Positions 26,686-64,000 of a DNA stretch of 64,000 bases are shown piece by piece (positions within the stretch are counted from its first letter, which is position 1; each line of letters opens with the position of its first letter). The translations under genes and the position numbers were made by a program. Where the stretch lies: NCBI RefSeq assembly GCF_000316605.1, contig NC_019683.1:478036-542035 (forward strand), read 5' to 3'. The notes beneath the pieces are model-generated. The model saw only the letters and a program-made list of their open reading frames with translations. It had not been told where the DNA came from and ran no database searches. This stretch comes from [Leptolyngbya] sp. PCC 7376. Lineage in GTDB: Bacteria > Cyanobacteriota > Cyanobacteriia > Cyanobacteriales > MRBY01.

Positions 26686-26795
26686 CAAAATTCTCCATCA
26701 GGGATTTTAAATTATGTTTGAATGGGCAAATGTAAAAAACAAAACTAACTGCCGATTGATTCAATGAATTTTGCGATTTCGTTGGGCAATCATCT

Positions 26796-27125: not shown

Positions 27126-27490
27126 CGATTGTATAAAACCTGGCTGTGTTCAAGAATATTGCGGCGGCGGATTGGATTATGACTGTTTTCGATGGAATGG
27201 CGGGTCACAATGTCTATGGGGCGATCGCCAAAAAGCTCGCTAAATTCTTGTTCGATGGTATCGAGATTGAAAAAAGTAATCTTGGCATCTGCGGCAAAAC
27301 TAACCAACAAATCAATATCACTATCTATTCGAAAATCATCCCGCAGTACAGAACCAAAACAGGATAGCTCAGTAATTTTCCAACGTTGACAAATCTCTTC
27401 TAAAGCGCGGCTTGGGATTTTAACTGTTGGGTTTAATACGACAACCTCATCTGTCGAAACCATGGCGATCACCTCAAAATAAGATTGCAT
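27122..27490 (-). CDS. mntA: minimal nucleotidyltransferase (MNT) antitoxin
   Basis: GSVLRDDFRIDSDIDLLV nucleotidyltransferase motif (GS...DxD); 122 aa. Confidence 0.8.
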   Translation of the reverse strand: MQSYFEVIAMVSTDEVVVLNPTVKIPSRALEEICQRWKITELSCFGSVLRDDFRIDSDIDLLVSFAADAKITFFNLDTIEQEFSELFGDRPIDIVTRHSIENSHNPIRRRNILEHSQVLYNR

Positions 27491-27771
27491 TCTAATTATA
27501 AACAGTGCTACCTGAGTAAATTTTGTCTAGTGATAATGAAATGCGAGAACAAAATCAAGAGCTGGTTTATTCGAGGAATTGTGAGATTTCTTGGGGCGAT
27601 CGCCGCGCTAAGTTCAAACGCAATAACGCCAAGACTGGGAATTGCTCTCGTCGCTCGCTAGTTCCTGCTATAAGATCTCTAATACTATTAAGGCGATCGC
27701 CACACCGTATCCTTTGGTCTTTAGTATGGAGGCTACAGGTATTTCGATTGATGTTCAGCTGAGAGAAAACC

Positions 27772-40054: not shown

Positions 40055-43000
40055 CTAGGAAATACTTGATATGGGTAATTGGATACAGAATGTCGTAGAT
40101 TGGCCTAACTCGGATTGAACGGTGAGGCTGCCGCCATGTTTTTTAACAATAATTTGATGGGCGATCGCCAGCCCTAGCCCAGTGCCTTGACCCGCTTTTT
40201 TAGTGGTAAACAAATGCTCGAAAATCTTATCTTGTACCGTCTCAGAAATGCCGCGACCATTATCTGAAATGGTGATTTTGACTTGATTATTGTCTACCTC
40301 TGTGCGAATCGTAATTTGAGGTGAACACTTCTCGATGTCTGCAAAATGAGAGTGAAGATTAGCTTCGTCTAAAGCATCAATGGCATTTGCCAAAATGTTC
40401 ATAAAGACTTGGTTTAATTGTCCAGGGAAACAATCAATAGGCGGAATGTCACCATAGTCGCTAATAACTTTAATTTCAGGACGTTCAGGATTTGCTTTGA
40501 GACGATGGCGCAGAATTAAAATGGTACTTTCCATGCCTTCGTGAATATCAAAACGTTGCTTTTGATCTGTGTCAGCACGAGAAAAGACACGCAAACTTTT
40601 ACTAATAGATGTGATGCGATCGCCACTATCTTCCATGGCTCGAATCAGTTTGGGTAAATCTTCGCGTACATACTCTAGATCGACAGCTTCCAATTCTTCT
40701 TTGAGCCCATCGCTGGGATGAGGAAGTTCTTCGGCATAGAGATCGAGCAACCCGAGTAAATCACTGATGTATTCCTGAGTGGCCCCGACATTGCCGAGAA
40801 TGCAACCAACAGGATTATTAATTTCATGGGCAACCCCCGCCACTAAGCCACCTAAGGCTGACATTTTTTCACTCTGTACCAGTTTTAATTGGGCTTGCTG
40901 TAAATCTGTTAATGTCTGCTGCACCTTTCCATATAGCCGCGCATTTTCTAAAGAAATAGCCGCCTGAGTGCAGAGGATGTTGATCGTCTGGATCCGTTCT
41001 TCTGTAAACACCCCTCTAGTCAAACGATTTTTGAGATATAAAATGCCAATGAGGCTACCTTGGTTGAGTAGCGGCATGCACAAAACACTTTTGGGTTGAC
41101 GCTGGATGAGGTAGTTATCAATGACAGGTAAGTCCGTTTCTAAATCATCGATGACAATAATCTCCTGCGTATTTTTAACGTATTGAATAAGTTTGACTGG
41201 AAGGTCGGGATTATTATCGAGGGGAGTTGTACAAAGCTGGAGTTCTTCTGGGGTGGCGATCGCTCTGACTTGCCACTCGTTAGCTTCACTCGGCAAAATT
41301 AAGGCGCAGCGATCGCCACCAGAATTTTGCAAAATAATCCGAGTGACCTCGGTAAGTAAGGCATTGAGGTCAATGTTACTGGCGATCGCTTGAGAGGCTT
41401 TAAAGATAGCCTGTTGGTCTAACGTTGCATTGATGGAGTAACTCGTATTCGATTGCGCTCTCGTCTGCACGCCAACATAGCGATTAATCATTGAAGTAGA
41501 AACTGAATCGCTCCCAGTGCTTTGTGCTGGTCTAGAAATCCGAGGGGATTGGGTTTCAATCTGAATCGTCTTGGCTCCAGCCCCCCAACGGGCATAGCCA
41601 TAAAAAGCCTCTTGGATATGGGGCATCGCAAAGCTATCCTTACCCTGTTGGTGGTAAAGCCGAGCCGCAAATTCATGGATGAGTGCTTCTTCTTGCATAA
41701 ATCCATTAGTGTGCGCTTCGTCGATTGCCCGATGATATAAGTCCATTGCACCGAGGCGATCGCCTTTTACTCGGCAGCATTCAGCTTTTACCAACAAATA
41801 TTTATGCAGGAAATTTTCTGGGCAACTATCAACCCAAATTTTGAGCTGTTTTTGATTTGCCTCAATCCATTCCCAACGCTTGTGTTCAAGATCTGATGCC
41901 TCGTCAAATTCCGTGTTTAGAAGAACGAGGGAGCCATAGTAAAAGTAGTAGCTATGGGTTGGAAAGCCCACTAGAGAAGACACTATCGGTTGAAGCTGCT
42001 GAAAAAATTGCCACCCTTTCTCAAAGTCTTCGATGATGCAGCAGCGATGCATTTCCAATGAGTAGTGAATGGCTAACCCCAACTGATTACGAGATATCTC
42101 CCCTGCTCGGATAACAGCTTGGGCTTCGGTAATAATTTCTGTTTGTTCCGGGCTAGTGGTATTGGCAGCGACTAACTGTTGCACAAAAATCTGGGCACCT
42201 GCCAGTGCAATTCGGAGCATCTCACTATCTACCTGTTTTTCAACAGCGTCATAGCTCGGCAGAATAGTATTCGCTAAACTCCCTAAGTCTTCTCCTTGGA
42301 AGAGGAGATTCAAGACACTGCCAAAGAGGTTATAGGCTGCATACTGGGTTTCTCCTGCTTCCATCCCGGCTAAAAAACTGTCGTTATTGACCTTCGAGGA
42401 ACCTGCAATTGGTCGAGCCCAAGGATGGGCAAATGAGCCAAGCATGAGTCCCGCTTGACATTGCATCGCCTTACTATTGAATCGATGGGCTAGCTCAACC
42501 CCCATTTCAGCAAAAGTATAGCCTCGTTGATAGTCACCCTGAATTGAGCCGAGCAGCATACCGTAGTTGGCATAGGATTTAGATGATTCTGCAATGTTGC
42601 CATATTCGATAGAGTAACGAGTTCCGAGGAGACCGACTAACGCATAGAGGCTATTTCTGCCCGTAATGTAGACTGGCGGATCAATCGCCACTAATAACTT
42701 AATTGCGGCTTGGATTTTGAGGGGTGGGACTTGATCATTGTGTTCTAATAAGTCATAGATGTGGCGATCGCCCATCATTTCAGCTAAGCGAATAAACTCT
42801 TGCTCAACTAGTGCTGGAATATTGTCCTCTTGGATGTCAATGTCCAAATCTCGCAGCCCTGTTAAACCCCAATCAATCGCCTCAGCATAGCGCCCTTGCA
42901 AACAACAGCCGACTAACTGTAAGACACAAATTTCGGCGCGATCGGTTGCTGATGTAATCTCTGCAAAGGCTTTGTCTGTAGTTTGTTCCAACTCCACATA

Positions 43001-45457
43001 GTTCGCACTACTCAGTTGAGCTGACCCCAATGCTTGATAGAGAGACAGTGTCAGATCATAGTGATGTTGCCATCCTTCATCCCCCAATAGCTCGATACCC
43101 GTTTTACAGTAATCAATAGTGGCATCGTAAGCCGTTGAATTAAGAGCCTTCTGGGCGGCGGCTAAGTTCAGCTGGATGAGTTGTCGCTGTTCATCGTCGT
43201 CCACTAAAAAATCGCGACCGAAATTAAGATAACCCACCACATTGAAGAGGAGGGCATCGTCGTTTGCTTCATTCATACAGGCCAGTAGCAACTGACCGAT
43301 GTGATACTGAGTTGCTACTTTTTCGGCCTCAGGGATTAAGGCGTAAGCCGCCTGTTGTACACGATCATGTAAAAATTGATAGCCCACTGCTAGCTTGTCT
43401 ACGGTGGGGATGCAATCATCATGGTTCTGAAAAAATTTGTAAGTTTCACTTTCTGGAATCACCAACCCTTCTTTTAGGGCGGCCCATAACGCAGTGGCGA
43501 CCTCCTCTTGACTTTGCTCACACACCACAGCCAGTGTTACCAAGTCAAAACGACTACCGATGCAAGCTGCAAGCTTTAACACTGTTTGAGTTGCACTGCT
43601 TAGTCTTTTCAGCCGACTCACCATAAAAGCCACCACATCATTAGTGAGTGCTAAGGCTCTGACCTGGGCGATATCGCATTGCCAACATCCCCCCTCTGCT
43701 GAATAGGCAATAAAACCATCTTCATGCAAGCCTTGCAAAAATTGCGTCGTAAAAAATGGATTACCTTGGGCTTTTTGGAATACTAATTTAGCTAATGCTA
43801 GTGCCGATTCTTGGGAGCATAGTAATGTATCCGCGATTAGGCTCGTAATATCGTCTAGATCTAGAGGGGCTAACGTAATGGTTCCAATATTTGCTCCCTT
43901 TTGAAGCATCTCTTCCAAAGTGAGCATCAACGGATGAGCTGGGGAAACCTCATTGTCCCGATAGGCTCCAAGCACCAATAGGTAGCCTGCATCTGAGTCT
44001 CCCATTAAGAGTTTGACCAACCCCAAAGAAGCCGAATCTGCCCATTGCAGATCATCTAGGAAAATGACTAGGGGATGTTCTTTCGTGGTGAAGACTCGCA
44101 CAAATTGACTAAAGAGGCGATTAAATCGATTTTGTGCGGCGATGCCGGATAGTTCGGGCAAGGGAGGCTGTTCACCAATGATTGTCGCTAGTTCTGGGAT
44201 GACATCAATGATGACTTGACCATTTTCGCCCACAGCTTCAAGGATTTTTGTCCGCCAGCGGGTGAGGTCAGTATCAGATTCTCCTAAAAGCTGTCCCATT
44301 AAGCTACGGAAGGCTTGGACAAAGGCTGAAAAGGGAGTGCTACGGTTAAATTGGTCAAATTTTCCTTTGATAAAGTAACCGTTCTGGCGGGTAATCGGCT
44401 TATGAACTTCATTGATGACTGCTGTTTTACCAATCCCTGAGAAGCCTGCTACCAGCATCATTTCGGTTTGACCCTGGGCAACGCGTTCAAAGGCATTGAG
44501 TAAGGTTTTTGTTTCGGCTTCGCGTCCGTAGAGCTTTTCGGGAATGAGGAAGCGATCGCTGACGTCCCTTAGTCCTAAGCAAAATTCAGCAATCTCTTCT
44601 TGTTTTTTCCATTGTGTGAGGCATTGTTCTAGATCGTATTTCAGACCCAGAGCACTCTGATAGCGGTCTTCCGCATTTTTTTGCATCAGTTTTGCCACGA
44701 GCGCTGCCACCATGGTTGGTATGTTTGGATTGGCCTCAGCGATGGGAGTGGGTTGCTGTGCCATATGGCAATGGATAAGTTCTAGCGGCTCGTCGCTATG
44801 GAAAGGTAATTGCCCAGTCAATAGCTGGTATAGCGTTACCCCGAGGGCATAGAAATCAGTACGATAATCAATTGCTCGGTTCATCCGGCCCGTTTGCTCT
44901 GGGGCAAGATAGGCGAGGGTGCCTTCTAGGCTTTTGGGACTTTGGAGTGCCTGGGTTTCTTTGGGCAGTAGAGAGGCGATGCTAAAGTCAATTAGCTTTA
45001 TTGTTTTTGACTCAGGATGAATCAGAATATTGGCAGGTTTGATGTCTTTATGAATAACTCGATGCTGATGAAGGTCGTGAAGAATATCGGCGAGTTGGCT
45101 GGCGATCGCCAGCACATCAGTTAGATCTAAGGTTTGCTCTTGAAGGAAAGTGTCTAGGGAAATACCACCCCAATCCTCCATCACCAGCACATAGCTATTA
45201 TCTATGGCCTCTAAACTAAGGGGCTTGATAATGCCTGAAATCGGCAGGTTGGCAGTGATCGTATATTGATTGCGAAACTGAACGAGTTCTTTAAAACTCG
45301 GGTAATCTCGCTGTAATACTTTGAGGATAACTGGATTGTTTGAGCCTGATTGTCTAGCGCGATAAACTGCTGTGCGAGACCCCAGATATAGTTGCTCGAC
45401 AATATTAAAACCCGCAATTTCGGGCTTTACGTTAGATCGATTGTCGATGGCGGTCAT
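40055..45457 (-). CDS. multi-sensor signal-transduction multi-kinase: Ser/Thr protein kinase + AAA/NTPase + TPR-like + GAF + HisKA + HATPase_c (1800 aa)
   Basis: HKDIKPANIL catalytic loop and DFS (DFG-like) motif; P-loop GFSGIGKT; GAF region; phospho-acceptor box AHEINNP (HisKA); G-boxes DNGRGI and GTGLGL. Confidence 0.9.
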   Translation of the reverse strand: MTAIDNRSNVKPEIAGFNIVEQLYLGSRTAVYRARQSGSNNPVILKVLQRDYPSFKELVQFRNQYTITANLPISGIIKPLSLEAIDNSYVLVMEDWGGISLDTFLQEQTLDLTDVLAIASQLADILHDLHQHRVIHKDIKPANILIHPESKTIKLIDFSIASLLPKETQALQSPKSLEGTLAYLAPEQTGRMNRAIDYRTDFYALGVTLYQLLTGQLPFHSDEPLELIHCHMAQQPTPIAEANPNIPTMVAALVAKLMQKNAEDRYQSALGLKYDLEQCLTQWKKQEEIAEFCLGLRDVSDRFLIPEKLYGREAETKTLLNAFERVAQGQTEMMLVAGFSGIGKTAVINEVHKPITRQNGYFIKGKFDQFNRSTPFSAFVQAFRSLMGQLLGESDTDLTRWRTKILEAVGENGQVIIDVIPELATIIGEQPPLPELSGIAAQNRFNRLFSQFVRVFTTKEHPLVIFLDDLQWADSASLGLVKLLMGDSDAGYLLVLGAYRDNEVSPAHPLMLTLEEMLQKGANIGTITLAPLDLDDITSLIADTLLCSQESALALAKLVFQKAQGNPFFTTQFLQGLHEDGFIAYSAEGGCWQCDIAQVRALALTNDVVAFMVSRLKRLSSATQTVLKLAACIGSRFDLVTLAVVCEQSQEEVATALWAALKEGLVIPESETYKFFQNHDDCIPTVDKLAVGYQFLHDRVQQAAYALIPEAEKVATQYHIGQLLLACMNEANDDALLFNVVGYLNFGRDFLVDDDEQRQLIQLNLAAAQKALNSTAYDATIDYCKTGIELLGDEGWQHHYDLTLSLYQALGSAQLSSANYVELEQTTDKAFAEITSATDRAEICVLQLVGCCLQGRYAEAIDWGLTGLRDLDIDIQEDNIPALVEQEFIRLAEMMGDRHIYDLLEHNDQVPPLKIQAAIKLLVAIDPPVYITGRNSLYALVGLLGTRYSIEYGNIAESSKSYANYGMLLGSIQGDYQRGYTFAEMGVELAHRFNSKAMQCQAGLMLGSFAHPWARPIAGSSKVNNDSFLAGMEAGETQYAAYNLFGSVLNLLFQGEDLGSLANTILPSYDAVEKQVDSEMLRIALAGAQIFVQQLVAANTTSPEQTEIITEAQAVIRAGEISRNQLGLAIHYSLEMHRCCIIEDFEKGWQFFQQLQPIVSSLVGFPTHSYYFYYGSLVLLNTEFDEASDLEHKRWEWIEANQKQLKIWVDSCPENFLHKYLLVKAECCRVKGDRLGAMDLYHRAIDEAHTNGFMQEEALIHEFAARLYHQQGKDSFAMPHIQEAFYGYARWGAGAKTIQIETQSPRISRPAQSTGSDSVSTSMINRYVGVQTRAQSNTSYSINATLDQQAIFKASQAIASNIDLNALLTEVTRIILQNSGGDRCALILPSEANEWQVRAIATPEELQLCTTPLDNNPDLPVKLIQYVKNTQEIIVIDDLETDLPVIDNYLIQRQPKSVLCMPLLNQGSLIGILYLKNRLTRGVFTEERIQTINILCTQAAISLENARLYGKVQQTLTDLQQAQLKLVQSEKMSALGGLVAGVAHEINNPVGCILGNVGATQEYISDLLGLLDLYAEELPHPSDGLKEELEAVDLEYVREDLPKLIRAMEDSGDRITSISKSLRVFSRADTDQKQRFDIHEGMESTILILRHRLKANPERPEIKVISDYGDIPPIDCFPGQLNQVFMNILANAIDALDEANLHSHFADIEKCSPQITIRTEVDNNQVKITISDNGRGISETVQDKIFEHLFTTKKAGQGTGLGLAIAHQIIVKKHGGSLTVQSELGQSTTFCIQLPISSIS

Positions 45458-54913: not shown

Positions 54914-56383
54914 TCAAGATAAAAGAGCAACTTTTGCTTTGGAGTCAATAAACTCTGTAACCCATTGTTTGAGATGATGAGTCGCCCGACAATCATCTTC
55001 GTTGTAGCGAATGATCGCATCTAAAAGTTGGCGATCGCCCGTTTCAAGCCAGGTGTCATACCAACAAACTGTTTGATCTCCGCTGACTCCCGCTTCATAC
55101 CAGCGATAACCTAAGGAATTAGCAAGGGATTTTAGAGAATAACTCTCGACAGGGAAGATGAGATATTTAGTAACCCATTGGTGAATATCCATTAACCGAC
55201 TCACAATACTTTGTATGTCGTTGGAATGTGTGCCATATTTTTTGCCGAGGCGATTGAGAGTATCTCGCTCATAAGGGGAAAAATGGTAGATCGGTGCAGT
55301 GGGGAATTGTTGCACAAACTCTACAAACTCATGCCAAATTTTTTCTTCTTCGTCTAAAGTTTCGGCGACAAAAGCATAAAATTTTTCGACTTGATTGCGA
55401 TGGTCGACAAAATAAACACCGAGCAAATAATCAACATTGCGGTCAGGTTCTGCTTCGATATCAAAAAAGAGTTCAACATCCTGTTTGGGGAGAGGCTGCA
55501 CTTTATTCGGACGATTAATCCGCCATGCCACTTCTTTATGGACAATTGCGCGAGCCTGCTGTTGCAGTTGCATTGCGATATCGGCACCGAGATGTTGACC
55601 GAGATGTTTCGGAGAGGTTTTTGCGAGGGTTTCGATGCTATCAATGCCCATGATTTGCAGAGATTCGTAGCGATTGGGGGTGACACCAGGGACAAGAGAA
55701 AGGTGTTGGTCGGCTTGGGCGATCGCATAGCAATGATTATGCCAAGAGCAGAGATGGCAGCGTTGCCGTGAGATAAAAACTTCCGGTTCTATTGGATGAC
55801 TGAGGACTTTGACACAGTCAGTAATTGTTTGCTGGAGTTTCTCTGACCAAAGCTCCATGTCAACTTTGTGAGGCCGGCGCGATCGCAAAATTACTTGAGT
55901 TAGCCGTGGCGATCGCCCTTGAATATTTTCGAGCAAAAAACTGTAAAGCATCGAGGTGAGCTTATATTCAGGCTTTGGTTTTTGACCAAGCTTGACACTC
56001 ACAGATCGATAATGCCATTTGCCCCAACGCGATTCACCCACTTGCCGCAACAATACTGTCGGTTTGCCAATCAGAGTGAGCTGTTCAATCTCTGTCCCTT
56101 CCCACCCATCGAAATGATGCAGCAACACACCTTTATATATGCACTCCACCCCTTCCGCCATGAGCGCTTCCGTTTCCTGCGCCCGCGTTTCCCAGTCCTT
56201 TGATTGCGGCTGGCTATAAGGACGTTGACCTAAATATGCGTCGATTTGCAGTTGGTTTTCCTTGCGGAGCTTCATCAAAAAATCTTTTTCCGAAGACTTT
56301 TCGCGGCGATCGCCATACAGATTCAGAAAAGCTCGCCGCTCGCACCGCTTAAAATTCAACAACAAATCATCGGTCAATAACAT
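54914..56383 (-). CDS. TM0106-family RecB/Cas4-like nuclease
   Basis: N-terminus MLLTDDLLLNFKRCERRAFLN typical of the family; Cys cluster CHLCSWHNHC; 489 aa. Confidence 0.7.
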   Translation of the reverse strand: MLLTDDLLLNFKRCERRAFLNLYGDRREKSSEKDFLMKLRKENQLQIDAYLGQRPYSQPQSKDWETRAQETEALMAEGVECIYKGVLLHHFDGWEGTEIEQLTLIGKPTVLLRQVGESRWGKWHYRSVSVKLGQKPKPEYKLTSMLYSFLLENIQGRSPRLTQVILRSRRPHKVDMELWSEKLQQTITDCVKVLSHPIEPEVFISRQRCHLCSWHNHCYAIAQADQHLSLVPGVTPNRYESLQIMGIDSIETLAKTSPKHLGQHLGADIAMQLQQQARAIVHKEVAWRINRPNKVQPLPKQDVELFFDIEAEPDRNVDYLLGVYFVDHRNQVEKFYAFVAETLDEEEKIWHEFVEFVQQFPTAPIYHFSPYERDTLNRLGKKYGTHSNDIQSIVSRLMDIHQWVTKYLIFPVESYSLKSLANSLGYRWYEAGVSGDQTVCWYDTWLETGDRQLLDAIIRYNEDDCRATHHLKQWVTEFIDSKAKVALLS

Positions 56384-56599
56384 GAAGCTTTAGTCATAAA
56401 AAGTCTTCCTTGGAAAATAACACATTCAAATGAGTCAGTAAAAATACCTTCCGATCCCCCCAAACTCTGAAGGGTTAACAAATATAATCGGCGATCACCC
56501 CAAACATAGAAAACTCAATACTTACCTCGTGTACAAATCACCCAGATCTAAACAGCAACTAGTCGTTTCTAAACACACACATATCCTAGATAGATCCCC

Positions 56600-56905
56600 T
56601 TAAGCAGATTCATCAAAACGACTTTTGAAACTGCCTTTCTGATACCAATATTGCTTTAAAGCATGGTGTGGTGTATGTAAGCTGGCCTTCGCTTGGTATA
56701 ACAAAATTCGACGATGAGTTCCGATCCAAACCCGTTTCAAAGGCTCAACTGAAATCAAAGTGCCGCCCAAACTTTCGACACATTGCTCAAATCGTTCAAT
56801 CGTTGAATAATCAAGTGTTTCAAAAATAAAAAAATTACCGGAACAAATCAAGTGACGACTCCGAATCCAAGCTTTCATTTTTTTGTTGGCAACCGGAGGT
56901 AGCAT
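56600..56905 (-). CDS. hypothetical 101-aa protein; positional candidate for CpeR-type activator
   Basis: Small ORF at the distal end of the cpeC-D-E-S-T gene string, the position cpeR occupies in cpeCDESTR operons; no sequence motif verified. Confidence 0.35.
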   Translation of the reverse strand: MLPPVANKKMKAWIRSRHLICSGNFFIFETLDYSTIERFEQCVESLGGTLISVEPLKRVWIGTHRRILLYQAKASLHTPHHALKQYWYQKGSFKSRFDESA

Positions 56906-57090
56906 CGCAATCCCAAGTCAAGTCACTAAGCTATCTAAACGCGAGTTAAAAATAAAATCATCAAACAATATGATAGCGACTTTTCTTCCTCAAAGTGGAC
57001 TGTTTTTCAGAATATCTATCTAGACAATTTTCAAACATTGATTGAATCGTTTTAATCTGTAAATAATGACCAAATAAAAAACAGGTTAAC

Positions 57091-57717
57091 CTAATAATTC
57101 TCTAGAACTTCAGTTGCATAAGAATCTGTTTTGTCGAATTCTAAAGGCCCAATAGCTGAGCCCCAGACTTGTTCATCAGTATCTACATCTAAACCTCGAT
57201 CCCACCCAATAAAGCTTGTCTCCGTAAAACGTGCATCGCTCACCAAATAAGTTCTTTTCCCACGCTTTTCGATTACACAACATTTCCCTTCTACTCGACC
57301 TTGAAAACCATTATTTTCAGGCCGAAAGATCATTGAGCAATTACAGCGGCGTTCGATTACCTCTGGTTTAATACTGCGGAGGATATCTAGATTGCGACCA
57401 GCACCAGCATAGAGCAAAGCATCTTTGAGACTATAGTTTTCGATATAAACCTCATCGCCATGGGGTACGAACCGATGAATGCCTTGGCGGTAAGGTAACC
57501 AGAGATCATAGTCATAGACTTGCTCTGAATAAAACCCAATGCCATTAAAAAATTCCCAGGGCAAAGGGCGAAAGAAAACACGGATGTGGGCGTAATTTTT
57601 TGAATCAGCAAAAGATTGCTTTTGGTTGCTAAATCCACCGGCCATGGTGCGCGCCAGAGAATACATTAATGTCTGCTCTGCTGGAGAGGGACTTTTTTTA
57701 TCGACTTGATAAACCAT
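57091..57717 (-). CDS. cpeT: phycobilin lyase CpcT/CpeT family
   Basis: DUF1001-type beta-barrel sequence (…AGGFSNQKQSFADSKNYAHIRVFFRPLPWEFFNGIGFYSEQ…). Confidence 0.85.
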   Translation of the reverse strand: MVYQVDKKSPSPAEQTLMYSLARTMAGGFSNQKQSFADSKNYAHIRVFFRPLPWEFFNGIGFYSEQVYDYDLWLPYRQGIHRFVPHGDEVYIENYSLKDALLYAGAGRNLDILRSIKPEVIERRCNCSMIFRPENNGFQGRVEGKCCVIEKRGKRTYLVSDARFTETSFIGWDRGLDVDTDEQVWGSAIGPLEFDKTDSYATEVLENY

Positions 57718-57750
57718 AGCTACAGTCAGTTTTAAGTATTTTTAAAATAA

Positions 57751-58284
57751 TTAGGCTGTCGCTTCTTCGCGAATTTCTGATGAAAAAGAAGCTGTCACGA
57801 CACCACTACCCGCACTTGTTTTAATCAATGAGACTCGCATTCTGAAATTAGGATTTGCGAACCAAATTCTCTCTTCTGCTGCGGCACGATCATATGTTGT
57901 CTTTAAAACAAATGCACCATCTTGATCGAAGTAATATTCACCGGCAGAGCTAATTGTTTCAGCATATCCTTGATCACGTAATAACTTTCCTTTTTGAGAA
58001 TCTGTTGTATCAGGGATCGGAATTAGAATTGTTGTGCCAGAAAAGGTTTCATCGTCATCCCAGTCAGATTCTCCTTCCCAGCTCATCCGAAATGGTGTCG
58101 CTGTAACTTCTGGGTCTATATCGTAGGTTTTGCAAAGAGCAATAACGTCAGGATTTTCTTTCGGGAGAGGTTCGATATTAATTGTCGATGTCACCTGTTC
58201 AAAGTGACCGAAGGCAAGATGGTGAGCACTACGCTGCGATCGCCACTGACCGAGCGAACTCTCTACAAATTTTTCTATATCCAT
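57751..58284 (-). CDS. cpeS: phycobilin lyase CpcS/CpeS family
   Basis: N-terminal FVESSLGQWRSQRSAHH motif of S-type lyases; 177 aa. Confidence 0.8.
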   Translation of the reverse strand: MDIEKFVESSLGQWRSQRSAHHLAFGHFEQVTSTINIEPLPKENPDVIALCKTYDIDPEVTATPFRMSWEGESDWDDDETFSGTTILIPIPDTTDSQKGKLLRDQGYAETISSAGEYYFDQDGAFVLKTTYDRAAAEERIWFANPNFRMRVSLIKTSAGSGVVTASFSSEIREEATA

Positions 58285-58526
58285 AAAAATCTTAAAAAAG
58301 AATTAAAAATCGACTTTTGTTTTGACTAAATTGCCAGGTTTTTAAAAGGAATTATTATAAAAATATTTCTTTAGTTTAAATTAATGGCGATGCTTTTGCG
58401 AAGGATATGTCGTAATATTCCGCAATATAAAAAACGGACTACCGAAATAGTCCGCTGCATTTGGATCCGCAATACTTGTGAGATGAGTGCAATCTAAAAC
58501 AAGTTCAGAATTGCTTAAACAGAAAT

Positions 58527-59294
58527 TTACGCGACTTCGGTGATCCCGAGAATAGTGCCGCCTGCCTTCTGGATGTTTTGAATGTTACGAGAGAGCTGCT
58601 TGTAGTTGACTTCGATGTAAGTCTTGCTCAACTTCTTGACAGGAGTTGTACCTGCGCCAGCAATGTCGATGCGGAAGCGCTTGTTTGTTGCGCCTGTTGC
58701 ACCACCGCGGGAGCTTGCAACTTTAACTTCTTGGGGAAGGTTACCTGCAATGCTGCCAACGAGTGCTGCATCACCACCGCGATCGCTAGTTGCATAGCCA
58801 CCAAGGAGGGAAACAGTTTGATTGAACGTATTGTTCTTAAAGCCAGTTTGAGTGCTGATTGTACGGGGATAAGGTACAACGTTTTCACCGAAAGCATTAG
58901 CGTATTCTTCGCTATCGATATAAGAATCGATATCAGCGCTATAGCCTTCTGTGGTGTAAGTTGTGACGTGCTCAGAGATTTCGCCTTGACCTTCAGGTGC
59001 ACGACCGAGCAGATGTTTGAAGTTTAGTTCAATGCTGCGGTAAGCAGGGCTGCCTTCGAAGAAGAGACTCTGATAAAAATCAGACTGAGCAACTGTGCGG
59101 ACAAAGTCACGGACAGTGATGTCACCGTTGCGAAGCATGGACTCTGCACTTTCAAATGCTTGTGCAGAGAGAACATGAACGTTGCCGAGGACCTGCTTGT
59201 AGATTGCGCGGATAACGACTTGCAGTTCGTCTTCAGTCGCGTTGTCGCGGAGCTCGACGGGGGCACCCGTAAAGCCAGCTGTTAAAGTCGACAT
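58527..59294 (-). CDS. cpeE: phycobilisome rod linker polypeptide (PBS-linker domain + C-terminal CpcD domain), CpeE-like
   Basis: VIRAIYKQVLGN...ELNFKHLLGR...DSYIDSEEY linker domain; C-terminal KRFRIDIAG...GGTILGITEV CpcD domain. Confidence 0.8.
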   Translation of the reverse strand: MSTLTAGFTGAPVELRDNATEDELQVVIRAIYKQVLGNVHVLSAQAFESAESMLRNGDITVRDFVRTVAQSDFYQSLFFEGSPAYRSIELNFKHLLGRAPEGQGEISEHVTTYTTEGYSADIDSYIDSEEYANAFGENVVPYPRTISTQTGFKNNTFNQTVSLLGGYATSDRGGDAALVGSIAGNLPQEVKVASSRGGATGATNKRFRIDIAGAGTTPVKKLSKTYIEVNYKQLSRNIQNIQKAGGTILGITEVA

Positions 59295-59375
59295 TCGTTG
59301 TCTCCTAAAGTATTAGTGATTTTTTAAAAGGTTGTTTATGCTGCCAATTTGCAGGGGCAATGGAAATAAATCGCC

Positions 59376-60110
59376 TTACAAATTGATGATTTCAAATGCA
59401 GCAAGGGCAACTGAAACTGTTCCCAGTAAAAGTAGCCCAGCACCACCGTAGGTGATGATTTTGCCGACAACACTGACCCAAGTAGGTGCCACCCAAGGCT
59501 TGTCTACAAAAGGAATATCACCGAAGTAGCCTTGTGCAATTAGGCGATCACGGTGATCGTTGCCATAGCGTGGCATCCGAGCAATGGGAGACTCTCCCTG
59601 GAGTTGCTGCGGCAAAATACGACGTCTTTGGTAGGGTACTGTGTCGAGCCCAAAATTATCCAGATACTCGTCACTATTGAGCAGGTCATTCACAAAACCC
59701 TGCATGCCTTTGGTCGCAATGACGATGGACCAAGCAATTTTTTCCTGCTCGTTGTAGACTTCTCGTCCTAGCACTCGCTGAACGCACATCTGGACAAGAC
59801 GATAATTATTGTTGACATCAACATTACGTTGACGGAATGAATCGGATAGCAGGAGACCTTGAATAAAGTCTCTAACCGTAATCTGTTTATTTTTGAGCTG
59901 GGATTCCAATTCGCGCTTGCGGTTCGCAACTAACATCTGTTGCTCGTTGAAAATCTGGCGATATGCAGCTCTAATTACTAACTCGATCTCTAAGCTCGAT
60001 GATGTATTTTCGACATTGAAAAATTGAGATTGTTCTTCACCAGCGACTTCAAAGCCTTTTACTCTATGGTTTCGGCTGTTTGGCGCGTAATCAAGTCGAG
60101 GAATAGCCAT
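59376..60110 (-). CDS. cpcL: CpcG-family rod-core linker with hydrophobic C-terminal membrane anchor (CpcL/CpcG2-type)
   Basis: MAIPRLDYAPNSRNHRVKGFEV CpcG N-terminus; PBS-linker domain; C-terminal WVSVVGKIITYGGAGLLLLGTVSVALAAF TM helix. Confidence 0.8.
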   Translation of the reverse strand: MAIPRLDYAPNSRNHRVKGFEVAGEEQSQFFNVENTSSSLEIELVIRAAYRQIFNEQQMLVANRKRELESQLKNKQITVRDFIQGLLLSDSFRQRNVDVNNNYRLVQMCVQRVLGREVYNEQEKIAWSIVIATKGMQGFVNDLLNSDEYLDNFGLDTVPYQRRRILPQQLQGESPIARMPRYGNDHRDRLIAQGYFGDIPFVDKPWVAPTWVSVVGKIITYGGAGLLLLGTVSVALAAFEIINL

Positions 60111-60312
60111 GGTGTTAAAAATTTAAATTTTTATAAAAAGGGGTCGGTACAGGCATGGGTAGCAATTGGCGATCGCCCCTAAAGGCAATGAATAATCTAA
60201 TGAATTCGTTGTCGAGAGCGGCGATCACCAACGACTAAACCCATGCTCAATGTGGGGTTTGCCTAGTTATCCTGACCAATATCGATTGAACACAACCGAA
60301 ACAGGACAATAA

Positions 60313-61077
60313 CTAGTTGACTTCAGTGATGCTGACGATACGACCACCAGCACGGTGAATGCGCTGAATCTGAGGTGTCATGCGATTGCCAGGAACGATG
60401 TACTCGCTGTTGCTGACGCGGCGGGGGCTGTCAAACTTGAAGCTAGTTGCAACAATTTTGAAAGTCTTACCAGTTGCATCTGCATAACCAGCAATACGAC
60501 CACCAGTGGAAGGAGTCTCAGCATCAGTGGAGAGATCACAAGCAAGATCGTCAACAAGACGCGCATCAGTAAACGCACTGTCAACACCTGCATAACCCTG
60601 ATAAACAGAGAGCGTACGGTTATAAGTTACGTTCTTTTGACCTACCTGAGTCTGCGCACCACAGTAGTAAGGAACGATGTTCTCACCGAAGTTGGTAATA
60701 TACTCTTCACTGTCGATATAAGAATCAATCTCAGCATCGTAGCCAGCATCAACTGTCTTGCAGATGTGCTCAGAAAGCTCTGCTTGGTCAGCAGGAGAAC
60801 GACCGAGAAGATGCTTGAAATTTAGCTCTACGAAACGGTAGGGCGCACAGGATTCAAAATAGCGGCTTTGGTAAAAACTAGACTTTGCAACAGCACGAAC
60901 AAATTCACGTACTGTTAGCTCACCATTAGCAAGCTGAGACTCAGCTTCAACTAGACGCTCACTTTCCATTACATGGGGATTTCCAAGCACTTGCTTGTAA
61001 ACCGCACGAACGACAGTGGATACATCGGCATTGCTTGTACTGGAAAGTTCGACTGGAGTATCTAAAACTACACTCAT
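60313..61077 (-). CDS. cpeD: phycobilisome rod linker polypeptide with CpcD domain, CpeD-like
   Basis: PBS-linker domain + C-terminal CpcD domain; RBS aggag. Confidence 0.8.
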   Translation of the reverse strand: MSVVLDTPVELSSTSNADVSTVVRAVYKQVLGNPHVMESERLVEAESQLANGELTVREFVRAVAKSSFYQSRYFESCAPYRFVELNFKHLLGRSPADQAELSEHICKTVDAGYDAEIDSYIDSEEYITNFGENIVPYYCGAQTQVGQKNVTYNRTLSVYQGYAGVDSAFTDARLVDDLACDLSTDAETPSTGGRIAGYADATGKTFKIVATSFKFDSPRRVSNSEYIVPGNRMTPQIQRIHRAGGRIVSITEVN

Positions 61078-61139
61078 GGAATGAAAGCTCCTAAAGAAAT
61101 TAAAGAGGTTTTTTTAAAAAAAGCTTAGAATTGCGAGAT

Positions 61140-62021
61140 CTAGCAAGGTGTGATGCTAGAGATTACACCGCCAGTTGCATGGATCCGCTTGTACTCATCG
61201 CTAAGACGATTGAAAGGTACGTAGTAAACTTTGTTGCTACGGCGGAACTTGGAAATGCGATTGACTTTGCCGGGAGAAGCATAGCCTGTAACTTCGATGC
61301 GGAACATCTTGCCGTTTTCGCCTGCACCAGAACCAAGACGAGTCAAGCCAGCATCGCGCACATTGGACTCTTGGAAAGACCAGCCATTACCAGCAGAACC
61401 AGCAGAAGGTGAAACAACAGGAATTGGAGTGTTGTTGATCACGTTGCGGTTGAGGACAGGGTTAATGCCAGAGATACTACCTTTTAGGTCACTGCTAGAT
61501 GCGCCACGCTGCATTGCAAATGTATGCGTGAAGCTAACCATGCTGATGCCAGCGGAAGTCTTATAACCACGGAGGTAAGGGACAAAGTCTTCACCGAATG
61601 TCGCTTGATATTCGTCACTGTCGAGGTAAGAGTCGATTTCTGCTTCATAGCCACCGTTGTCGAGGAGGGTGCTATGCACACGCATTTCTTCAAGGTCTTT
61701 GGGAGTACGACCCAAGAAGTGTTTGAAGTTGAGCTCGATGAAACGGTAACGAGGTGTTGTTTCAAAGAAACGGCTACTGTACAAATCGGATTTGGCGATC
61801 GCCCGTACAAATTCACGAACGCTCAATTCGCCTCTTTTGAATTGCGATTCTGCTACAGAAGCACGCTCGCTTTCCATTACATAGGCATTACCTAAGATTT
61901 GGCGGTAGATAGCACGAATGATAGCTTCTTGCTCATCTGCACGTTGTCCCGGAATGGACTCAATCGGGTCAGTCTCTTCAAAGAGAGCAACGCCGAGTCT
62001 GGATGCGGGTCCAAAAGTCAT
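61140..62021 (-). CDS. cpeC: phycobilisome rod linker polypeptide with CpcD domain, CpeC-like
   Basis: Start at MTFGPASRLGV (RBS ggag); linker domain + CpcD domain (MFRIEVTGY...VYYVPFNRLSDEYKRIH). Confidence 0.8.
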   Translation of the reverse strand: MTFGPASRLGVALFEETDPIESIPGQRADEQEAIIRAIYRQILGNAYVMESERASVAESQFKRGELSVREFVRAIAKSDLYSSRFFETTPRYRFIELNFKHFLGRTPKDLEEMRVHSTLLDNGGYEAEIDSYLDSDEYQATFGEDFVPYLRGYKTSAGISMVSFTHTFAMQRGASSSDLKGSISGINPVLNRNVINNTPIPVVSPSAGSAGNGWSFQESNVRDAGLTRLGSGAGENGKMFRIEVTGYASPGKVNRISKFRRSNKVYYVPFNRLSDEYKRIHATGGVISSITPC

Positions 62022-62626
62022 AAGAAGAGGATCTCCTTTATCAATCAATATTTGGGTTTTCGGTGGGGGAAATGACCGTTAAAGGTGGGGTTCCCAACCC
62101 GATCCCTGAGCAATCCTAGTGCATCTCTTAATGCTGAATTTCAGCTCGAAATCTCAAAAAAATACCGAGCTAGCACAAAGTACTGCTACGCGTTATCCGA
62201 GCAGCAGCGCCAGAGAAATCCGTAGCATATATAACGAAAAACATTGGATACTCAAGACAAATATTGCGTTCTCCCGGACACAAACTATCGGTGGACGCAA
62301 TATAACGTAATAAACGTTACAGAACGTCACGCGCCGACACTCATGGTTCAAAAAGTTCCAATGTTTGGTGTGAACTGTAAATGCTGCTAGCTAAGCTTTT
62401 CTAGTATCTACAGTACGGGTGCTTGAAATATAAATTTTAGTAGTGTTCTCTTAATGTTTAAGGCCGTTTTCTGATGTTGATCGCGGTGATTTTAGGAACA
62501 ATCTTCCGAAAAGTATCTGGCTAGGCTTAAATAAGTGCCTTTGTGAAGAAATGTTTGGCTACGATGCGGATGGCGATCGCCTACAATCAGATCTTGATGT
62601 TGAGTTGTATTTGATTTGCCTGTCTA

Positions 62627-63142
62627 ATGAACTATTTGATCGCTGTTTACCCTGACCGCATCACCGCTGAAGCTGCATACACCGATCTAGAGCAATCCGA
62701 GATTCCGAAGTCTGATCTAACGATCCTTGGGAAAGGCTATCAAACAGCAGATGAGTTTGGGTTTATCGATCCCACTCAGCAAGGGAAAAAACAAGCAAAG
62801 TTAATGTCATTTTGGTTGGTGCCTTTTGGCTTTTTCGGTGGATTTGTTTTTGACTACATCACTGGGCTAAATACTTTCGCTTGGGCTGGAACGCCAGGGA
62901 ATCATATTGTTGGTGGTTTGGCTGGTGCTATCGGTGGGGCAATGGGCAGTTTTTTCGTAGGGAATAGTATCGGTGTTTTAATGGGTAGTGGTGATGCGTT
63001 GCCCTATCGTAATCGTCTCAATATGGGTAAGTATCTCGTTATTTATAAGTACGATGTGAGTCAGTATCGTGATTTAGCAACTCGGATTTTCCAAGATACA
63101 AATCCCGAAAATTTACAGGGGTACTCGGAAGAGTCTGCTTAA
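62627..63142 (+). CDS. hypothetical membrane protein with glycine-zipper segment
   Basis: 171 aa; GGLAGAIGGAMGSFFVGNSIGVLMG Gly-zipper TM region. Confidence 0.4.
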   Translation: MNYLIAVYPDRITAEAAYTDLEQSEIPKSDLTILGKGYQTADEFGFIDPTQQGKKQAKLMSFWLVPFGFFGGFVFDYITGLNTFAWAGTPGNHIVGGLAGAIGGAMGSFFVGNSIGVLMGSGDALPYRNRLNMGKYLVIYKYDVSQYRDLATRIFQDTNPENLQGYSEESA

Positions 63143-63349
63143 TTTGTGATTGCTCCTGCTTTTGAGGCGATCGCCCATTTGTTGCCCAATGCTCGTCATG
63201 GGAGTGTTGGTTAGAAGTGAAGATAAAAATAGGCGATCGCCTGATCACAATTCTGCGGAGCTGCGGCTTCTGCAATCGGGGAAAGTGAGGTTAAATGGGA
63301 TGGGAATTTTTCTCATAGCCCTTAGTTACCGAGCCTTAAACAGAAAATT

Positions 63350-64000
63350 ATGGTTGCCCTCACCCCAAATCCGAGTTACAGCGTTACCCTCCGTCTGCGT
63401 ATTCCCAACCAAGCAGGGACTTTGGCGCAAGTAACCCAGGCGATTGCCAAGGTCGGGGGTAGCTTAGGAAATATTGAGCTGATTGAACGGGATTTGAAAT
63501 TTTTGCTGCGGGATATCACCGTGGATGCGTCTAGTGATAAGCATGCCGATGAAATTGTCGAGGCCGTTAAAGCTGTCGAAAATATCGAAGTTGTAGATGT
63601 TGCTGACCGTACTTTTGCGATTCACCGTGGTGGAAAAATCACTGTAGAAAGTCGTATTCCCCTAACGGTGCAATCAGATTTGGCAATGGCCTATACACCT
63701 GGTGTTGGTCGTGTTTGTAAGGCGATCGCCGAATCTCCAGAGCGGGTTTTTGATCTCACAGTAAAAAGCAATATGGTGGCGATCGTCACCGATGGTAGTG
63801 CTGTGCTGGGTTTAGGAAATCTTGGAGCAGAAGCATCGATGCCTGTGATGGAAGGGAAAGCAATGCTCTTCAAAGAATTTGCAGGTATTAATGCCTTTCC
63901 CATCTGTCTCGATACCCAAGATGTTGATGAAATCGTCAAAACCGTTAAATATTTAGCGCCTGTTTTCGGTGGGGTGAACCTTGAGGATATTGCTGCACCC
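63350..64000 (+). CDS. NAD(P)-dependent malic enzyme (N-terminal ACT-like domain + malic enzyme domain), 3' partial, runs off window
   Basis: …SMPVMEGKAMLFKEFAGINAFPICLDT…VNLEDIAAP malic-enzyme signatures; no stop before window end. Confidence 0.85.
   Translation, partial: MVALTPNPSYSVTLRLRIPNQAGTLAQVTQAIAKVGGSLGNIELIERDLKFLLRDITVDASSDKHADEIVEAVKAVENIEVVDVADRTFAIHRGGKITVESRIPLTVQSDLAMAYTPGVGRVCKAIAESPERVFDLTVKSNMVAIVTDGSAVLGLGNLGAEASMPVMEGKAMLFKEFAGINAFPICLDTQDVDEIVKTVKYLAPVFGGVNLEDIAAP

What the first reader, a model, noticed from the sequence alone, without database searches (positions are those of the whole stretch)
56600..62048. Phycoerythrin-type linker/lyase operon with an embedded membrane-anchored CpcG/CpcL rod-core linker
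On the minus strand the order is CpeC-like linker (with CpcD domain), CpeD-like linker, a CpcG-family protein, CpeE-like linker, CpeS lyase, CpeT lyase, and a 101-aa ORF in the position of cpeR. The CpcG-family protein begins MAIPRLDYAPNS and ends in a hydrophobic helix, the CpcL/CpcG2 hallmark that anchors rods to the thylakoid/PSI. A CpcL-type anchor inside a cpeCDESTR-like operon suggests phycoerythrin-containing CpcL-rods. These might be PSI-coupled and co-regulated with green-light acclimation, which is not the textbook arrangement.
Basis: partly seen in the sequence, partly recalled or inferred. Interest (0 to 1): 0.6.

Follow-up and report, generated by a model that had tools for sequence, protein, structure and literature searches.

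The report
Phycoerythrin linker operon containing cpcL
This stretch of the cyanobacterium [Leptolyngbya] sp. PCC 7376 is a phycoerythrin antenna-linker operon with a genuine membrane-anchoring CpcL linker gene inside it, a gene arrangement already known from other cyanobacteria, although this lineage lacks the usual green-light sensor next to the operon.

Summary
Seven minus-strand genes (56600-62021) encode CpeC, a second PE rod linker, CpcL, a third PE rod linker, CpeS, CpeT and CpeR. The window is [Leptolyngbya] sp. PCC 7376. The CpcG-like protein is a true CpcL. It aligns end to end with the structurally solved Synechocystis CpcL, shares the family's conserved hydrophobic tail, and is modelled with a C-terminal helix at residues 210-238. 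The three rod linkers fall in PE-cluster clades, not in the phycocyanin-operon clade.

The arrangement is not new. cpcL sharing an operon with PE linkers and cpeR is published (N. punctiforme cpeC-cpcG2-cpeR1, the "CA2/0 hybrid"). In my scan, 22 of 81 cpcL loci are PE-embedded. The identical seven-gene order occurs in three Symploca/Caldora MAGs and in Limnothrix rosea.

Symploca and Caldora have ccaS/ccaR and the CcaR G-box beside the operon. PCC 7376, L. rosea and a related MAG have neither. They share a different conserved upstream block instead.

PE-bearing, PSI-directed CpcL rods remain a reasonable but untested inference. Verdict: an ordinary new member of a known kind, with a small regulatory twist.

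The parts
61140..62021 (-). cpeC: phycoerythrin rod linker, 293 aa (PF00427 + PF01383). Inferred to join the first PE hexamer to phycocyanin.
   Evidence: CpeC clade at 98% bootstrap, together with the Nostoc (pebAB-adjacent) and Stanieria cpeC. 62-69% identical to those, against 41-48% to phycocyanin-operon linkers.
60313..61077 (-). Second phycoerythrin rod linker, 254 aa ('cpeD' by position; the D/E letter is ambiguous).
   Evidence: Pfam. Clade at 98% bootstrap. Relatives are named 'phycoerythrin-associated linker protein' by JGI. NCBI calls one relative CpeE (Rivularia) and another the CpeD-derived '27.9 kDa' name (Planktothrix).
59376..60110 (-). cpcL: rod-membrane (photosystem I-associated) linker, 244 aa.
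   Evidence: Full-length alignment 1-244 to Synechocystis CpcL 8hfq_n (315 bits, E 2e-93). Canonical CpcG matches only residues 1-190 (about 207-220 bits). The C-terminal tail is conserved in all 120 best homologues. dN/dS 0.079 against L. rosea.
59397..59483 (-). Segment of cpcL encoding the predicted C-terminal transmembrane helix (residues 210-238).
   Evidence: AlphaFold2 helix H210-238, pLDDT about 68-76. Kyte-Doolittle 19-residue maximum 2.14 at residues 224-242. Aligns with the tail of 8hfq CpcL. In Anabaena the homologous helix inserts between PSI monomers (PMC13037873).
58527..59294 (-). Third phycoerythrin rod linker, 255 aa ('cpeE' by position).
   Evidence: Pfam. Clade at 72% bootstrap with the second linker of the Nostoc and Stanieria PE clusters. 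The inner clade with Symploca/Caldora has 97% support.
58423..58456 (-). Terminator-like hairpin (10-bp stem, 4-nt loop) plus T-run between the last linker gene and cpeS. Probably an attenuator or an RNA 3'-end stabiliser.
   Evidence: Fold -14.9 kcal/mol, z -1.8. Conserved in L. rosea, and in L001 it directly follows cpcL. No compensatory changes are available from three sequences.
57751..58284 (-). cpeS: phycoerythrin-cluster bilin lyase, 177 aa.
   Evidence: Pfam CpeS, E 2e-62. 59-89% identical to genes inside cpe clusters, 40% or less to paralogues.
57091..57717 (-). cpeT: phycoerythrin-cluster bilin lyase, 208 aa.
   Evidence: Pfam CpeT, E 1e-63. 57-88% identical to genes inside cpe clusters, 39-40% to CpcT-type genes next to cpcBA.
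56600..56905 (-). cpeR: small activator of cpeBA/pebAB, 101 aa (92 aa if started at Met10).
   Evidence: CpeR-family names; 66-94% identity in the fetched loci. The activator role is published (PMC13079394; PMC5737509).
62215..62327 (-). Clade-specific, near-invariant upstream block of about 113 nt, 194-306 nt before the cpeC ATG. It starts with a triple ACGTT repeat. Presumed promoter/operator, in place of the CcaR G-box promoter of the Symploca/Caldora operons.
   Evidence: Alignment A2. The triple ACGTT is unique in the window (0 expected). It occurs only upstream of cpeC in the PCC 7376, L. rosea and L001 loci.
62282..62321 (-). Candidate NtcA-type promoter inside that block: TGTA-N8-TAC, then 19 nt, then TAGTTT. 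Weak lead only.
   Evidence: one match in the window, 0.30 expected, 25 of 100 shuffles with at least one match. Consensus and the -41.5 geometry come from PMC5714215.

Best explanation
This is the phycoerythrin rod-linker/lyase/activator operon of [Leptolyngbya] sp. PCC 7376: cpeC, a PE linker, cpcL, a PE linker, a hairpin attenuator, then cpeS, cpeT and cpeR. A genuine cpcL is embedded between the second and third PE linker genes.

Shown:
- the gene identities;
- the CpcL tail;
- conservation of this exact order in L. rosea and in three Symploca/Caldora MAGs;
- strong purifying selection on all seven genes;
- absence of ccaS, ccaR and the G-box at this locus.

Inferred:
- The linker genes are transcribed together from a promoter in the conserved block upstream of cpeC. 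Transcription is partly terminated at the hairpin, and read-through supplies cpeS, cpeT and cpeR.
- CpeR then activates cpeBA and pebAB elsewhere in the genome.
- CpcL, made in step with CpeC/D/E, seats its PF00427 domain in a basal phycocyanin hexamer.
- The CpcD-type domain of CpeC docks on that hexamer, and PE hexamers stack distally. The result is core-less PC-PE rods.

The module is the known 'PE linkers + cpcL + cpeR' unit of CcaSR-controlled chromatic acclimation. In this clade it sits between housekeeping genes without the sensor pair, and is driven by a different, uncharacterised promoter.
For: - Organism and ORFs.
- Domains.
- CpcL: full-length match to 8hfq CpcL (315 bits) against 207-220 bits over residues 1-190 for CpcG. 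The tail is conserved in 120 of 120 homologues. AF2 helix at 210-238.
- PE linkers: tree. Names.
- CpeS/CpeT orthology.
- CpeR.
- Synteny: the identical seven-gene order in L083 and in L002, L005 and L006. 22 of 81 cpcL loci are PE-embedded.
- dN/dS 0.03-0.09.
- Conserved hairpin after the last linker gene.
- No CcaS, CcaR or G-box.
- Conserved alternative upstream block.
- Rod architecture and helix function: PMC13037873 and PMC13436157. The Anabaena CpcL rod is capped by PecC, so CpcL rods accept the linker of a distal pigment class.
- Published precedent for the module: PMC5737509, PMC9415938.
Against: - Co-transcription, the transcription start and the attenuator are inferred from spacing and conservation only. 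The 202-bp cpeD-cpcL gap could hold an internal promoter.
- No PE-containing CpcL rod has been isolated in any paper I could read. All characterised CpcL rods are PC-only.
- PE-embedded CpcLs are polyphyletic and have no distinguishing residues, so gene position may carry little functional meaning.
- cpeBA, cpcBA, cpcG and any ccaSR lie outside the window, so the rest of the antenna system was not seen.
Confidence: 0.7

Rival explanations
1. The co-location has no specific PE-CpcL coupling. cpcL simply rides in a phycobilisome operon so that it is made when rods are made. The CpcL rods of this strain contain phycocyanin only, as in Synechocystis and Anabaena, and the PE linkers serve only the CpcG-anchored hemidiscoidal phycobilisome.
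For: - cpcL sits in many different contexts: directly upstream of cpcBA in 23 of 81 loci, alone with ccaSR in 19, and with no phycobilisome neighbours in 17.
- PE-embedded CpcLs are polyphyletic and share no diagnostic residues.
- All solved CpcL rods are PC-only.
Against: - The position of cpcL between the second and third PE linker genes is kept in distant lineages: the PCC 7376/L. rosea clade and Symploca/Caldora.
- A rod on CpcL is described as structurally the same as a standard rod (PMC13436157). Nothing known would therefore stop CpeC from extending it when PE is present.
- The Anabaena CpcL rod carries PecC.
Confidence: 0.22
2. The operon is still under green/red control by CcaS/CcaR (or by RcaE/F/C) encoded elsewhere in the PCC 7376 genome.
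For: - The identical operon in Symploca and Caldora has ccaS and ccaR adjacent and a perfect G-box.
- The rest of the 5.1 Mb genome was not visible to me.
Against: - No G-box tandem anywhere in the 64 kb window, even with 2 mismatches.
- Half-sites occur at chance level and none lies in the operon's non-coding regions.
- The cpeC upstream region has been replaced by a different block conserved in three genomes.
- No sensor or regulator lies within 8-10 kb in L083, L001 or L081.
Confidence: 0.1
3. This CpcL binds a phycoerythrin hexamer directly, giving PE-only rods attached to PSI. That would make it a functionally new CpcL subtype.
For: - Only its position among PE linker genes.
- It is the most divergent protein of the operon between PCC 7376 and L. 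rosea (76.6% identity against 82-93% for the others).
Against: - No residue separates PE-context CpcLs from the others; the largest frequency difference is 0.48.
- The PF00427 domain is highly conserved with the Synechocystis CpcL that sits in a PC hexamer.
- The PE-context proteins interleave with PC-operon proteins in the tree.
Confidence: 0.04

Closest known systems
Nostoc punctiforme ATCC 29133 ccaS-ccaR / cpeC-cpcG2(cpcL)-cpeR1 cluster (Hirose 2010; called a 'CA2/0 hybrid' in PMC5737509)
   Same: cpcL shares an operon with a PE rod linker gene and cpeR. The expected outcome is joint production of PE rods and the rod-membrane linker.
   Different: The operon here is longer: three PE linkers plus cpeS and cpeT, with cpcL between the second and third linker. 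There is no adjacent ccaS or ccaR and no G-box. I could not open Hirose 2010. I rely on its description in PMC5737509.
Fremyella diplosiphon (Tolypothrix sp. PCC 7601) cpeCDESTR operon (Cobley 2002, as cited in PMC5737509 and PMC13079394)
   Same: The same genes in the same order: linkers, then cpeS, cpeT and cpeR last. CpeR acts as activator of cpeBA and pebAB. From my memory of Cobley 2002, the linker transcripts are the abundant ones and cpeSTR is expressed by read-through, which would match the hairpin found here.
   Different: cpeCDESTR has no cpcL. It is controlled by the Rca and Cgi systems. The canonical cpcL-free versions I retrieved are L085 (Nostoc) and L087 (Stanieria).
Symploca spp. 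and Caldora sp. MAG loci (L002, L005, L006; partial L008, L022), found here
   Same: The identical order cpeC-cpeD-cpcL-cpeE-cpeS-cpeT-cpeR, with 63-83% protein identity.
   Different: These loci have ccaR divergent from cpeC, ccaS adjacent where the contig shows it, and a perfect CTTTCCGATTT x2 G-box. In L002 a probable cpeBA pair lies within about 5 kb.
Synechocystis sp. PCC 6803 ccaR / cpcG2(cpcL) / ccaS cluster (CA1) and its CpcL phycobilisome structure 8HFQ
   Same: An orthologous CpcL with the same C-terminal helix. The mechanism of PSI-directed, core-less rods is expected to be shared.
   Different: Synechocystis has no PE. Its cpcL is the first gene after the G-box promoter, and its rods are PC only.
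Phycobilisome rod gene region of marine Synechococcus, and non-acclimating PE-rich Cyanobium
   Same: cpcL lies within the phycobilisome rod gene region of marine Synechococcus (PMC8995045). In Cyanobium, PE and cpcL occur without any CA photosensor, and the authors suggest PE-rich CpcL rods (PMC13342260).
   Different: Different lineage and different gene order. There is no cpeR-terminated linker operon.

Membership tests
CpcL (rod-membrane / PSI-associated linker, formerly CpcG2/CpcG3) | CpcG-type N-terminal region with a PF00427 linker domain | tested here: met
   PF00427, E 8e-45. The NCBIfam CpcG1-4 models match residues 1-195 at 213-225 bits. These scores are below the cut-offs of those 'exception'-type models.
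CpcL (rod-membrane / PSI-associated linker, formerly CpcG2/CpcG3) | [quoted passage not shown] | tested here: met
   Kyte-Doolittle maximum 2.14 at residues 224-242, with the tail conserved in 120 of 120 homologues. AF2 helix at 210-238. The tail aligns with that of 8hfq CpcL.
CpcL (rod-membrane / PSI-associated linker, formerly CpcG2/CpcG3) | Closer to experimentally characterised CpcL than to CpcG | tested here: met
   8hfq_n CpcL: 315 bits over the full length. Synechocystis CpcG (7sc7_BF): 220 bits. PCC 7002 CpcG (7ext_A1): 207 bits. Both CpcG matches cover residues 1-190 only.
CpcL (rod-membrane / PSI-associated linker, formerly CpcG2/CpcG3) | Forms allophycocyanin-free rods bound to photosystem I | not testable with these tools
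   This needs biochemistry. It is known for Synechocystis and Anabaena.
cpeCDESTR-type phycoerythrin linker operon | PE-associated (not PC-associated) rod linkers | tested here: met
   Clades at 98, 98 and 72% bootstrap, separate from the phycocyanin-operon clade (70%). JGI names. No experimentally characterised F. diplosiphon sequence was available as a reference.
cpeCDESTR-type phycoerythrin linker operon | cpeS, cpeT and a terminal cpeR downstream of the linkers | tested here: met
cpeCDESTR-type phycoerythrin linker operon | Only cpe genes in the operon | tested here: not met
   cpcL lies between the second and third linker genes.
CcaSR-controlled PE/cpcL cluster (CA2+CA1 'hybrid') | cpcL in one operon with PE linker gene(s) and cpeR | tested here: met
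   Same strand, with gaps of 33-242 bp.
CcaSR-controlled PE/cpcL cluster (CA2+CA1 'hybrid') | ccaS and ccaR adjacent to the operon | tested here: not met
   tblastn with CcaR and CcaS from L024: no CcaS hit in the window, and only a 26% OmpR-type hit at 1892-2653. Nothing in L081, L083 or L001. The rest of the genome was not searched.
CcaSR-controlled PE/cpcL cluster (CA2+CA1 'hybrid') | G-box (tandem CTTTCCGATTT) in the promoter of the first gene | tested here: not met
   Present in every ccaR-linked upstream region inspected. 0 matches in the window at 2 mismatches. Half-sites at chance level.

The most novel reading that the evidence does not exclude
In the PCC 7376 / Limnothrix rosea clade, the 'PE linkers + cpcL + cpeR' module has been uncoupled from the CcaS/CcaR green-light switch and rewired to another regulator acting on the conserved ACGTT/GTA-N8-TAC block, possibly NtcA. 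Phycoerythrin-bearing, photosystem I-directed CpcL rods would then be made constitutively or in response to nitrogen status rather than light colour.
Probability: 0.12. Interest if true: 0.55.

Novelty: new member of a known kind. Interest (0 to 1): 0.3.

Why it matters
If CpcL made from this operon really carries PE hexamers, photosystem I in these cyanobacteria would get its own green-light antenna. Every CpcL rod characterised so far is phycocyanin-only. PCC 7376 is an axenic, fully sequenced culture-collection strain in which the module is not under the CcaSR colour switch. It could therefore be a simple system for isolating such rods. Otherwise the locus mainly fills in the known diversity of chromatic-acclimation gene clusters. 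It also shows that public annotation here ('phycobilisome linker polypeptide', 'rod-core linker') hides both the Cpe and the CpcL identities.

Tried and rejected
- The PDB sequence search could not separate PE from PC linkers. It holds no cyanobacterial CpeC/D/E, and CpcC and red-algal linkers score alike.
- NCBIfam has no Cpe-linker models, and its CpcG models are 'exception'-type models with very high score cut-offs.
- Public names for the exact PCC 7376 proteins are generic or wrong.
- Hirose 2010, Hirose 2019 and Tandeau de Marsac 1977 are not held in the library. No held paper states the chromatic-acclimation phenotype of PCC 7376.
- The Rfam scan of 56000-64000 found nothing.
- An exact search of metagenome contigs for the conserved promoter 22-mer found nothing.
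- The covariation test of the hairpin had too few sequences and showed no compensatory pairs.
- The first bootstrap run timed out and was redone with numpy.
- The test for a PE-specific CpcL signature was negative.
- I could not decide whether cpcL was inherited with the seven-gene module or inserted separately. The NJ tree puts the window clade next to stand-alone Limnothrix cpcL (87%). Shared rare residues point about equally to Limnothrix (5 columns) and to Symploca/Caldora (4 columns).
- The sigma-70 scan gave fewer promoter-like sites than the shuffles and none inside the conserved block.
- The NtcA-like site is not statistically significant on its own.

Full report
**What is there.**
The window comes from [Leptolyngbya] sp. 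PCC 7376. The CpcG-like protein is 100% identical to that strain's protein, which sits on a 5.1 Mb contig. The neighbouring proteins are AFY36908-AFY36914.

Seven consecutive ORFs lie on the minus strand, with these Pfam results:

| Coordinates | Product | Domains |
|---|---|---|
| 61140-62021 | 293 aa | PBS_linker_poly + CpcD |
| 60313-61077 | 254 aa | PBS_linker_poly + CpcD |
| 59376-60110 | 244 aa | PBS_linker_poly only |
| 58527-59294 | 255 aa | PBS_linker_poly + CpcD |
| 57751-58284 | 177 aa | CpeS |
| 57091-57717 | 208 aa | CpeT |
| 56600-56905 | 101 aa | none |

The last ORF is CpeR by homology. It has 444 homologues, and NCBI names the PCC 7376 protein 'CpeR family transcriptional regulator'.
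- All three rod linkers carry the CpcD domain.
- cpeC most likely starts at the ATG at 62021, as the gene callers have it.
- CpeR may start at Met10.

All seven genes are under strong purifying selection against Limnothrix rosea (dN/dS 0.03-0.09; dS is near saturation, so the values are rough).

**Is the CpcG-like protein a CpcL?**
Yes.
- The NCBIfam CpcG models cover only residues 1-195.
- The remaining tail is strongly hydrophobic, with a Kyte-Doolittle 19-residue maximum of 2.14.
- The tail is conserved in all 120 best homologues as GK.IT..GAG.L.LG..AVALAAWGIISL. These include Synechocystis and Picosynechococcus homologues.
- Against solved structures, the best match is the Synechocystis 'Photosystem I-associated linker protein CpcL' (8hfq). 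It aligns end to end at 315 bits.
- Canonical CpcG proteins align only over residues 1-190, at 207-220 bits.
- An AlphaFold2 model (mean pLDDT 62) shows the helical linker domain, a low-confidence loop and one long C-terminal helix at residues 210-238.
- In Anabaena the homologous helix inserts between PSI monomers and contacts PsaA, PsaB and PsaM (PMC13037873).

**Are the rod linkers phycoerythrin-type?**
The PDB and NCBIfam could not decide this, so I built context-labelled references.
- PE references: the linkers in L085 (Nostoc, beside pebAB) and L087 (Stanieria). Both loci have cpeC-cpeD-...-cpeS-cpeT-cpeR without cpcL.
- PC references: the linkers following cpcBA in L070, L054, L052 and L079. 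The cpcB of L070 was confirmed against C-phycocyanin structures.

I made a neighbour-joining tree of 66 sequences with 100 bootstraps.
- The three window linkers fall in three clades, with 98, 98 and 72% support. Each contains PE-cluster linkers.
- The phycocyanin-operon linkers form their own clade (70%), with no window protein in it.

All JGI-named relatives of the second linker are called 'phycoerythrin-associated linker protein'.

CpeS and CpeT show bimodal identity: 57-89% to genes in cpe clusters and 40% or less to paralogues.

The D and E letters are not secure. The window's third linker groups with the second linker of the Nostoc and Stanieria clusters. NCBI names relatives of the window's second linker both CpeE and the CpeD-derived '27.9 kDa' name.

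**How unusual is the arrangement?**
Not very.
- PMC9415938 notes that most cpcL genes lie in phycobiliprotein operons.
- cpcL lies in the phycobilisome rod region of marine Synechococcus.

I scanned one genome per species with a CpcL alignment and obtained 80 loci. Together with the window and L083, 81 loci could be scored for context:

| Context of cpcL | Loci |
|---|---|
| Directly adjacent to PE linker or cpeR genes | 22 (13 also with ccaS/ccaR in view) |
| Directly upstream of cpcBA | 23 |
| With ccaSR only | 19 |
| No phycobilisome or cca neighbours | 17 |

- The exact order cpeC-cpeD-cpcL-cpeE-cpeS-cpeT-cpeR recurs in two Symploca MAGs and one Caldora MAG. Two further contigs show it partially.
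- Limnothrix rosea IAM M-220 has the same order and the same housekeeping flanks as PCC 7376.
- The closest MAG, L001, has the same order but lacks the third linker.
- Shorter versions also occur: cpeC-cpcL-cpeD-cpeR, cpcL-cpeD-cpeR and cpcL-cpeR.

**Regulation: the one real difference.**
I took CcaR and CcaS references from the canonical Synechocystis-type locus L024.
- The Symploca and Caldora operons have ccaR divergent from cpeC, and ccaS adjacent where the contig shows it.
- Every ccaR-linked upstream region I inspected carries a tandem CTTTCCGATTT G-box.

PCC 7376 has none of these.
- There is no CcaS hit in the window. The only CcaR-like hit is a 26%-identical OmpR-type gene about 59 kb away.
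- There is no tandem G-box in 64 kb, even with two mismatches.
- Half-sites occur at chance level.
- There is nothing in the 3.6 kb beyond the window edge.
- L. rosea and L001 likewise have no sensor or regulator nearby.

Instead, the three genomes share a near-invariant block of about 113 nt (62215-62327), 194-306 nt upstream of the cpeC ATG.
- It opens with a triple ACGTT repeat.
- That repeat is unique in the window and is found only at this position in this clade.
- Within the block, TGTAACGTTTATTAC fits the NtcA consensus GTAN8TAC. A TAGTTT hexamer follows 19 nt downstream.
- This geometry matches NtcA-activated promoters centred at -41.5 (PMC5714215).
- The composite pattern is expected 0.3 times per window by chance, so I treat it only as a lead.

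**Operon structure.**
The gaps between genes are 62, 202, 81, 242, 33 and 185 bp.
- The only convincing terminator-like element is a 10-bp hairpin with a T-run at 58433-58456, between the last linker gene and cpeS.
- It is conserved in L. rosea. In L001, which lacks the third linker, it follows cpcL directly.
- This suggests that the linker genes, cpcL included, form the abundant transcript, and that cpeS, cpeT and cpeR are expressed by read-through or from a downstream promoter. From memory of Cobley 2002, this resembles F. diplosiphon.
- These steps are inferred, not shown.

**Mechanism.**
- The review PMC13436157 describes a CpcL rod as a standard rod in which CpcL replaces CpcG.
- The Anabaena CpcL rod is capped by the phycoerythrocyanin linker PecC.

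The most likely product here is therefore a core-less rod built as follows:
- CpcL occupies the basal phycocyanin hexamer.
- CpeC bridges to PE, and the other two linkers add further PE hexamers.

I found no experimental demonstration.

A special PE-binding CpcL is unlikely.
- PE-embedded CpcLs are polyphyletic.
- No residue distinguishes them.

**Evolutionary origin: unresolved.**
- The NJ tree puts the window clade's CpcL next to stand-alone cpcL genes of Limnothrix MAGs (87%). Another 70%-identical relative is also stand-alone.
- Shared rare residues point about equally to Limnothrix and to Symploca/Caldora.

**Verdict.**
The finding is real and well described, but it is a further example of a known module. 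The only notable twist is the loss of the CcaSR/G-box control region in this clade and its replacement by a different conserved promoter block.

Noticed in passing
window 62627-63142 (+): A 171-aa ORF divergent from cpeC (Lepto7376_0482, hypothetical, no Pfam family, glycine-rich hydrophobic middle). It is kept at the same position in L. rosea and L001 (89% identity). Homologues at about 52% identity occur elsewhere in three Moorena loci.
   Followed up: partly
window 62022-62272 (-): If transcription starts near the conserved block, cpeC has a 5' leader of about 250 nt. It contains several stretches conserved across the three genomes (e.g. GCTAGCTCGGTATT, CTCAGGGATCG.GTTGGG, AACCCAAATATTGATTGA). 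Rfam found no family. From memory, a long regulatory cpeC leader is known in F. diplosiphon (the Cgi system).
   Followed up: partly
window 40055-45457 (-): An 1800-aa multidomain sensor: Ser/Thr protein kinase, AAA_16 STAND ATPase, TPR, GAF, HisKA and HATPase. It gave no tblastn hit to CcaS at E <= 1e-10.
   Followed up: partly
window 18553-29322 (+): A run of same-strand genes: a 669-aa fusion of a PLP-dependent decarboxylase with a 2OG-Fe dioxygenase, a second 2OG-Fe_Oxy_2 protein, class V and class I/II aminotransferases, an NAD epimerase/dehydratase, a PALP+ACT enzyme and an ATP-grasp/PGM1_C protein. It looks like a small-molecule (amino-acid-derived) biosynthetic cluster.
   Followed up: no
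window 60111-60312 (-); also window upstream of cpeC around 62570-62585: The 202-bp cpeD-cpcL gap is poorly conserved apart from copies of the GCGATCGC palindrome (which I know as HIP1). The simple scans found no promoter-like or terminator-like site there.
   Followed up: partly
L001 10736-11084: The closest MAG lacks the third PE linker gene. cpcL is followed directly by the conserved hairpin and then cpeS, so a two-PE-linker version of the same operon exists.
   Followed up: partly
L002 13627-15420 and L006 13608-15407: Just downstream of cpeR, Symploca and Caldora encode an ORF of about 600 aa that matches the CpeC query at about 450 bits. Separate tblastn segments suggest tandem linker domains. 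In L002, genes about 50%/42% identical to CpcB/CpcA (probably cpeBA) and further CpeE-like linkers follow.
   Followed up: no
L070, L052, L054 and about 20 other loci (cpcL at 10001-10750 in L070): In 23 of 81 loci cpcL lies directly upstream of cpcB-cpcA, followed in several loci by CpcC-type linkers. So cpcL heads a phycocyanin operon in many Pleurocapsales, Moorena and Prochloron genomes.
   Followed up: partly
public annotation of window 58527-61077 and of the Symploca homologues: NCBI and UniRef label the second and third PE rod linkers of PCC 7376 'rod-core linker polypeptide'. The Symploca orthologues (P0261, P0263) are labelled 'photosystem I reaction center subunit XII'. Both are mis-annotations.
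   Followed up: yes
L085 10876-11883: The Nostoc sp. NMS4 PE cluster has a 335-aa PF00427-only linker just after cpeR. In the NJ tree (support not checked) it groups with the long Symploca/Caldora linker ORFs, not with CpcL.
   Followed up: no
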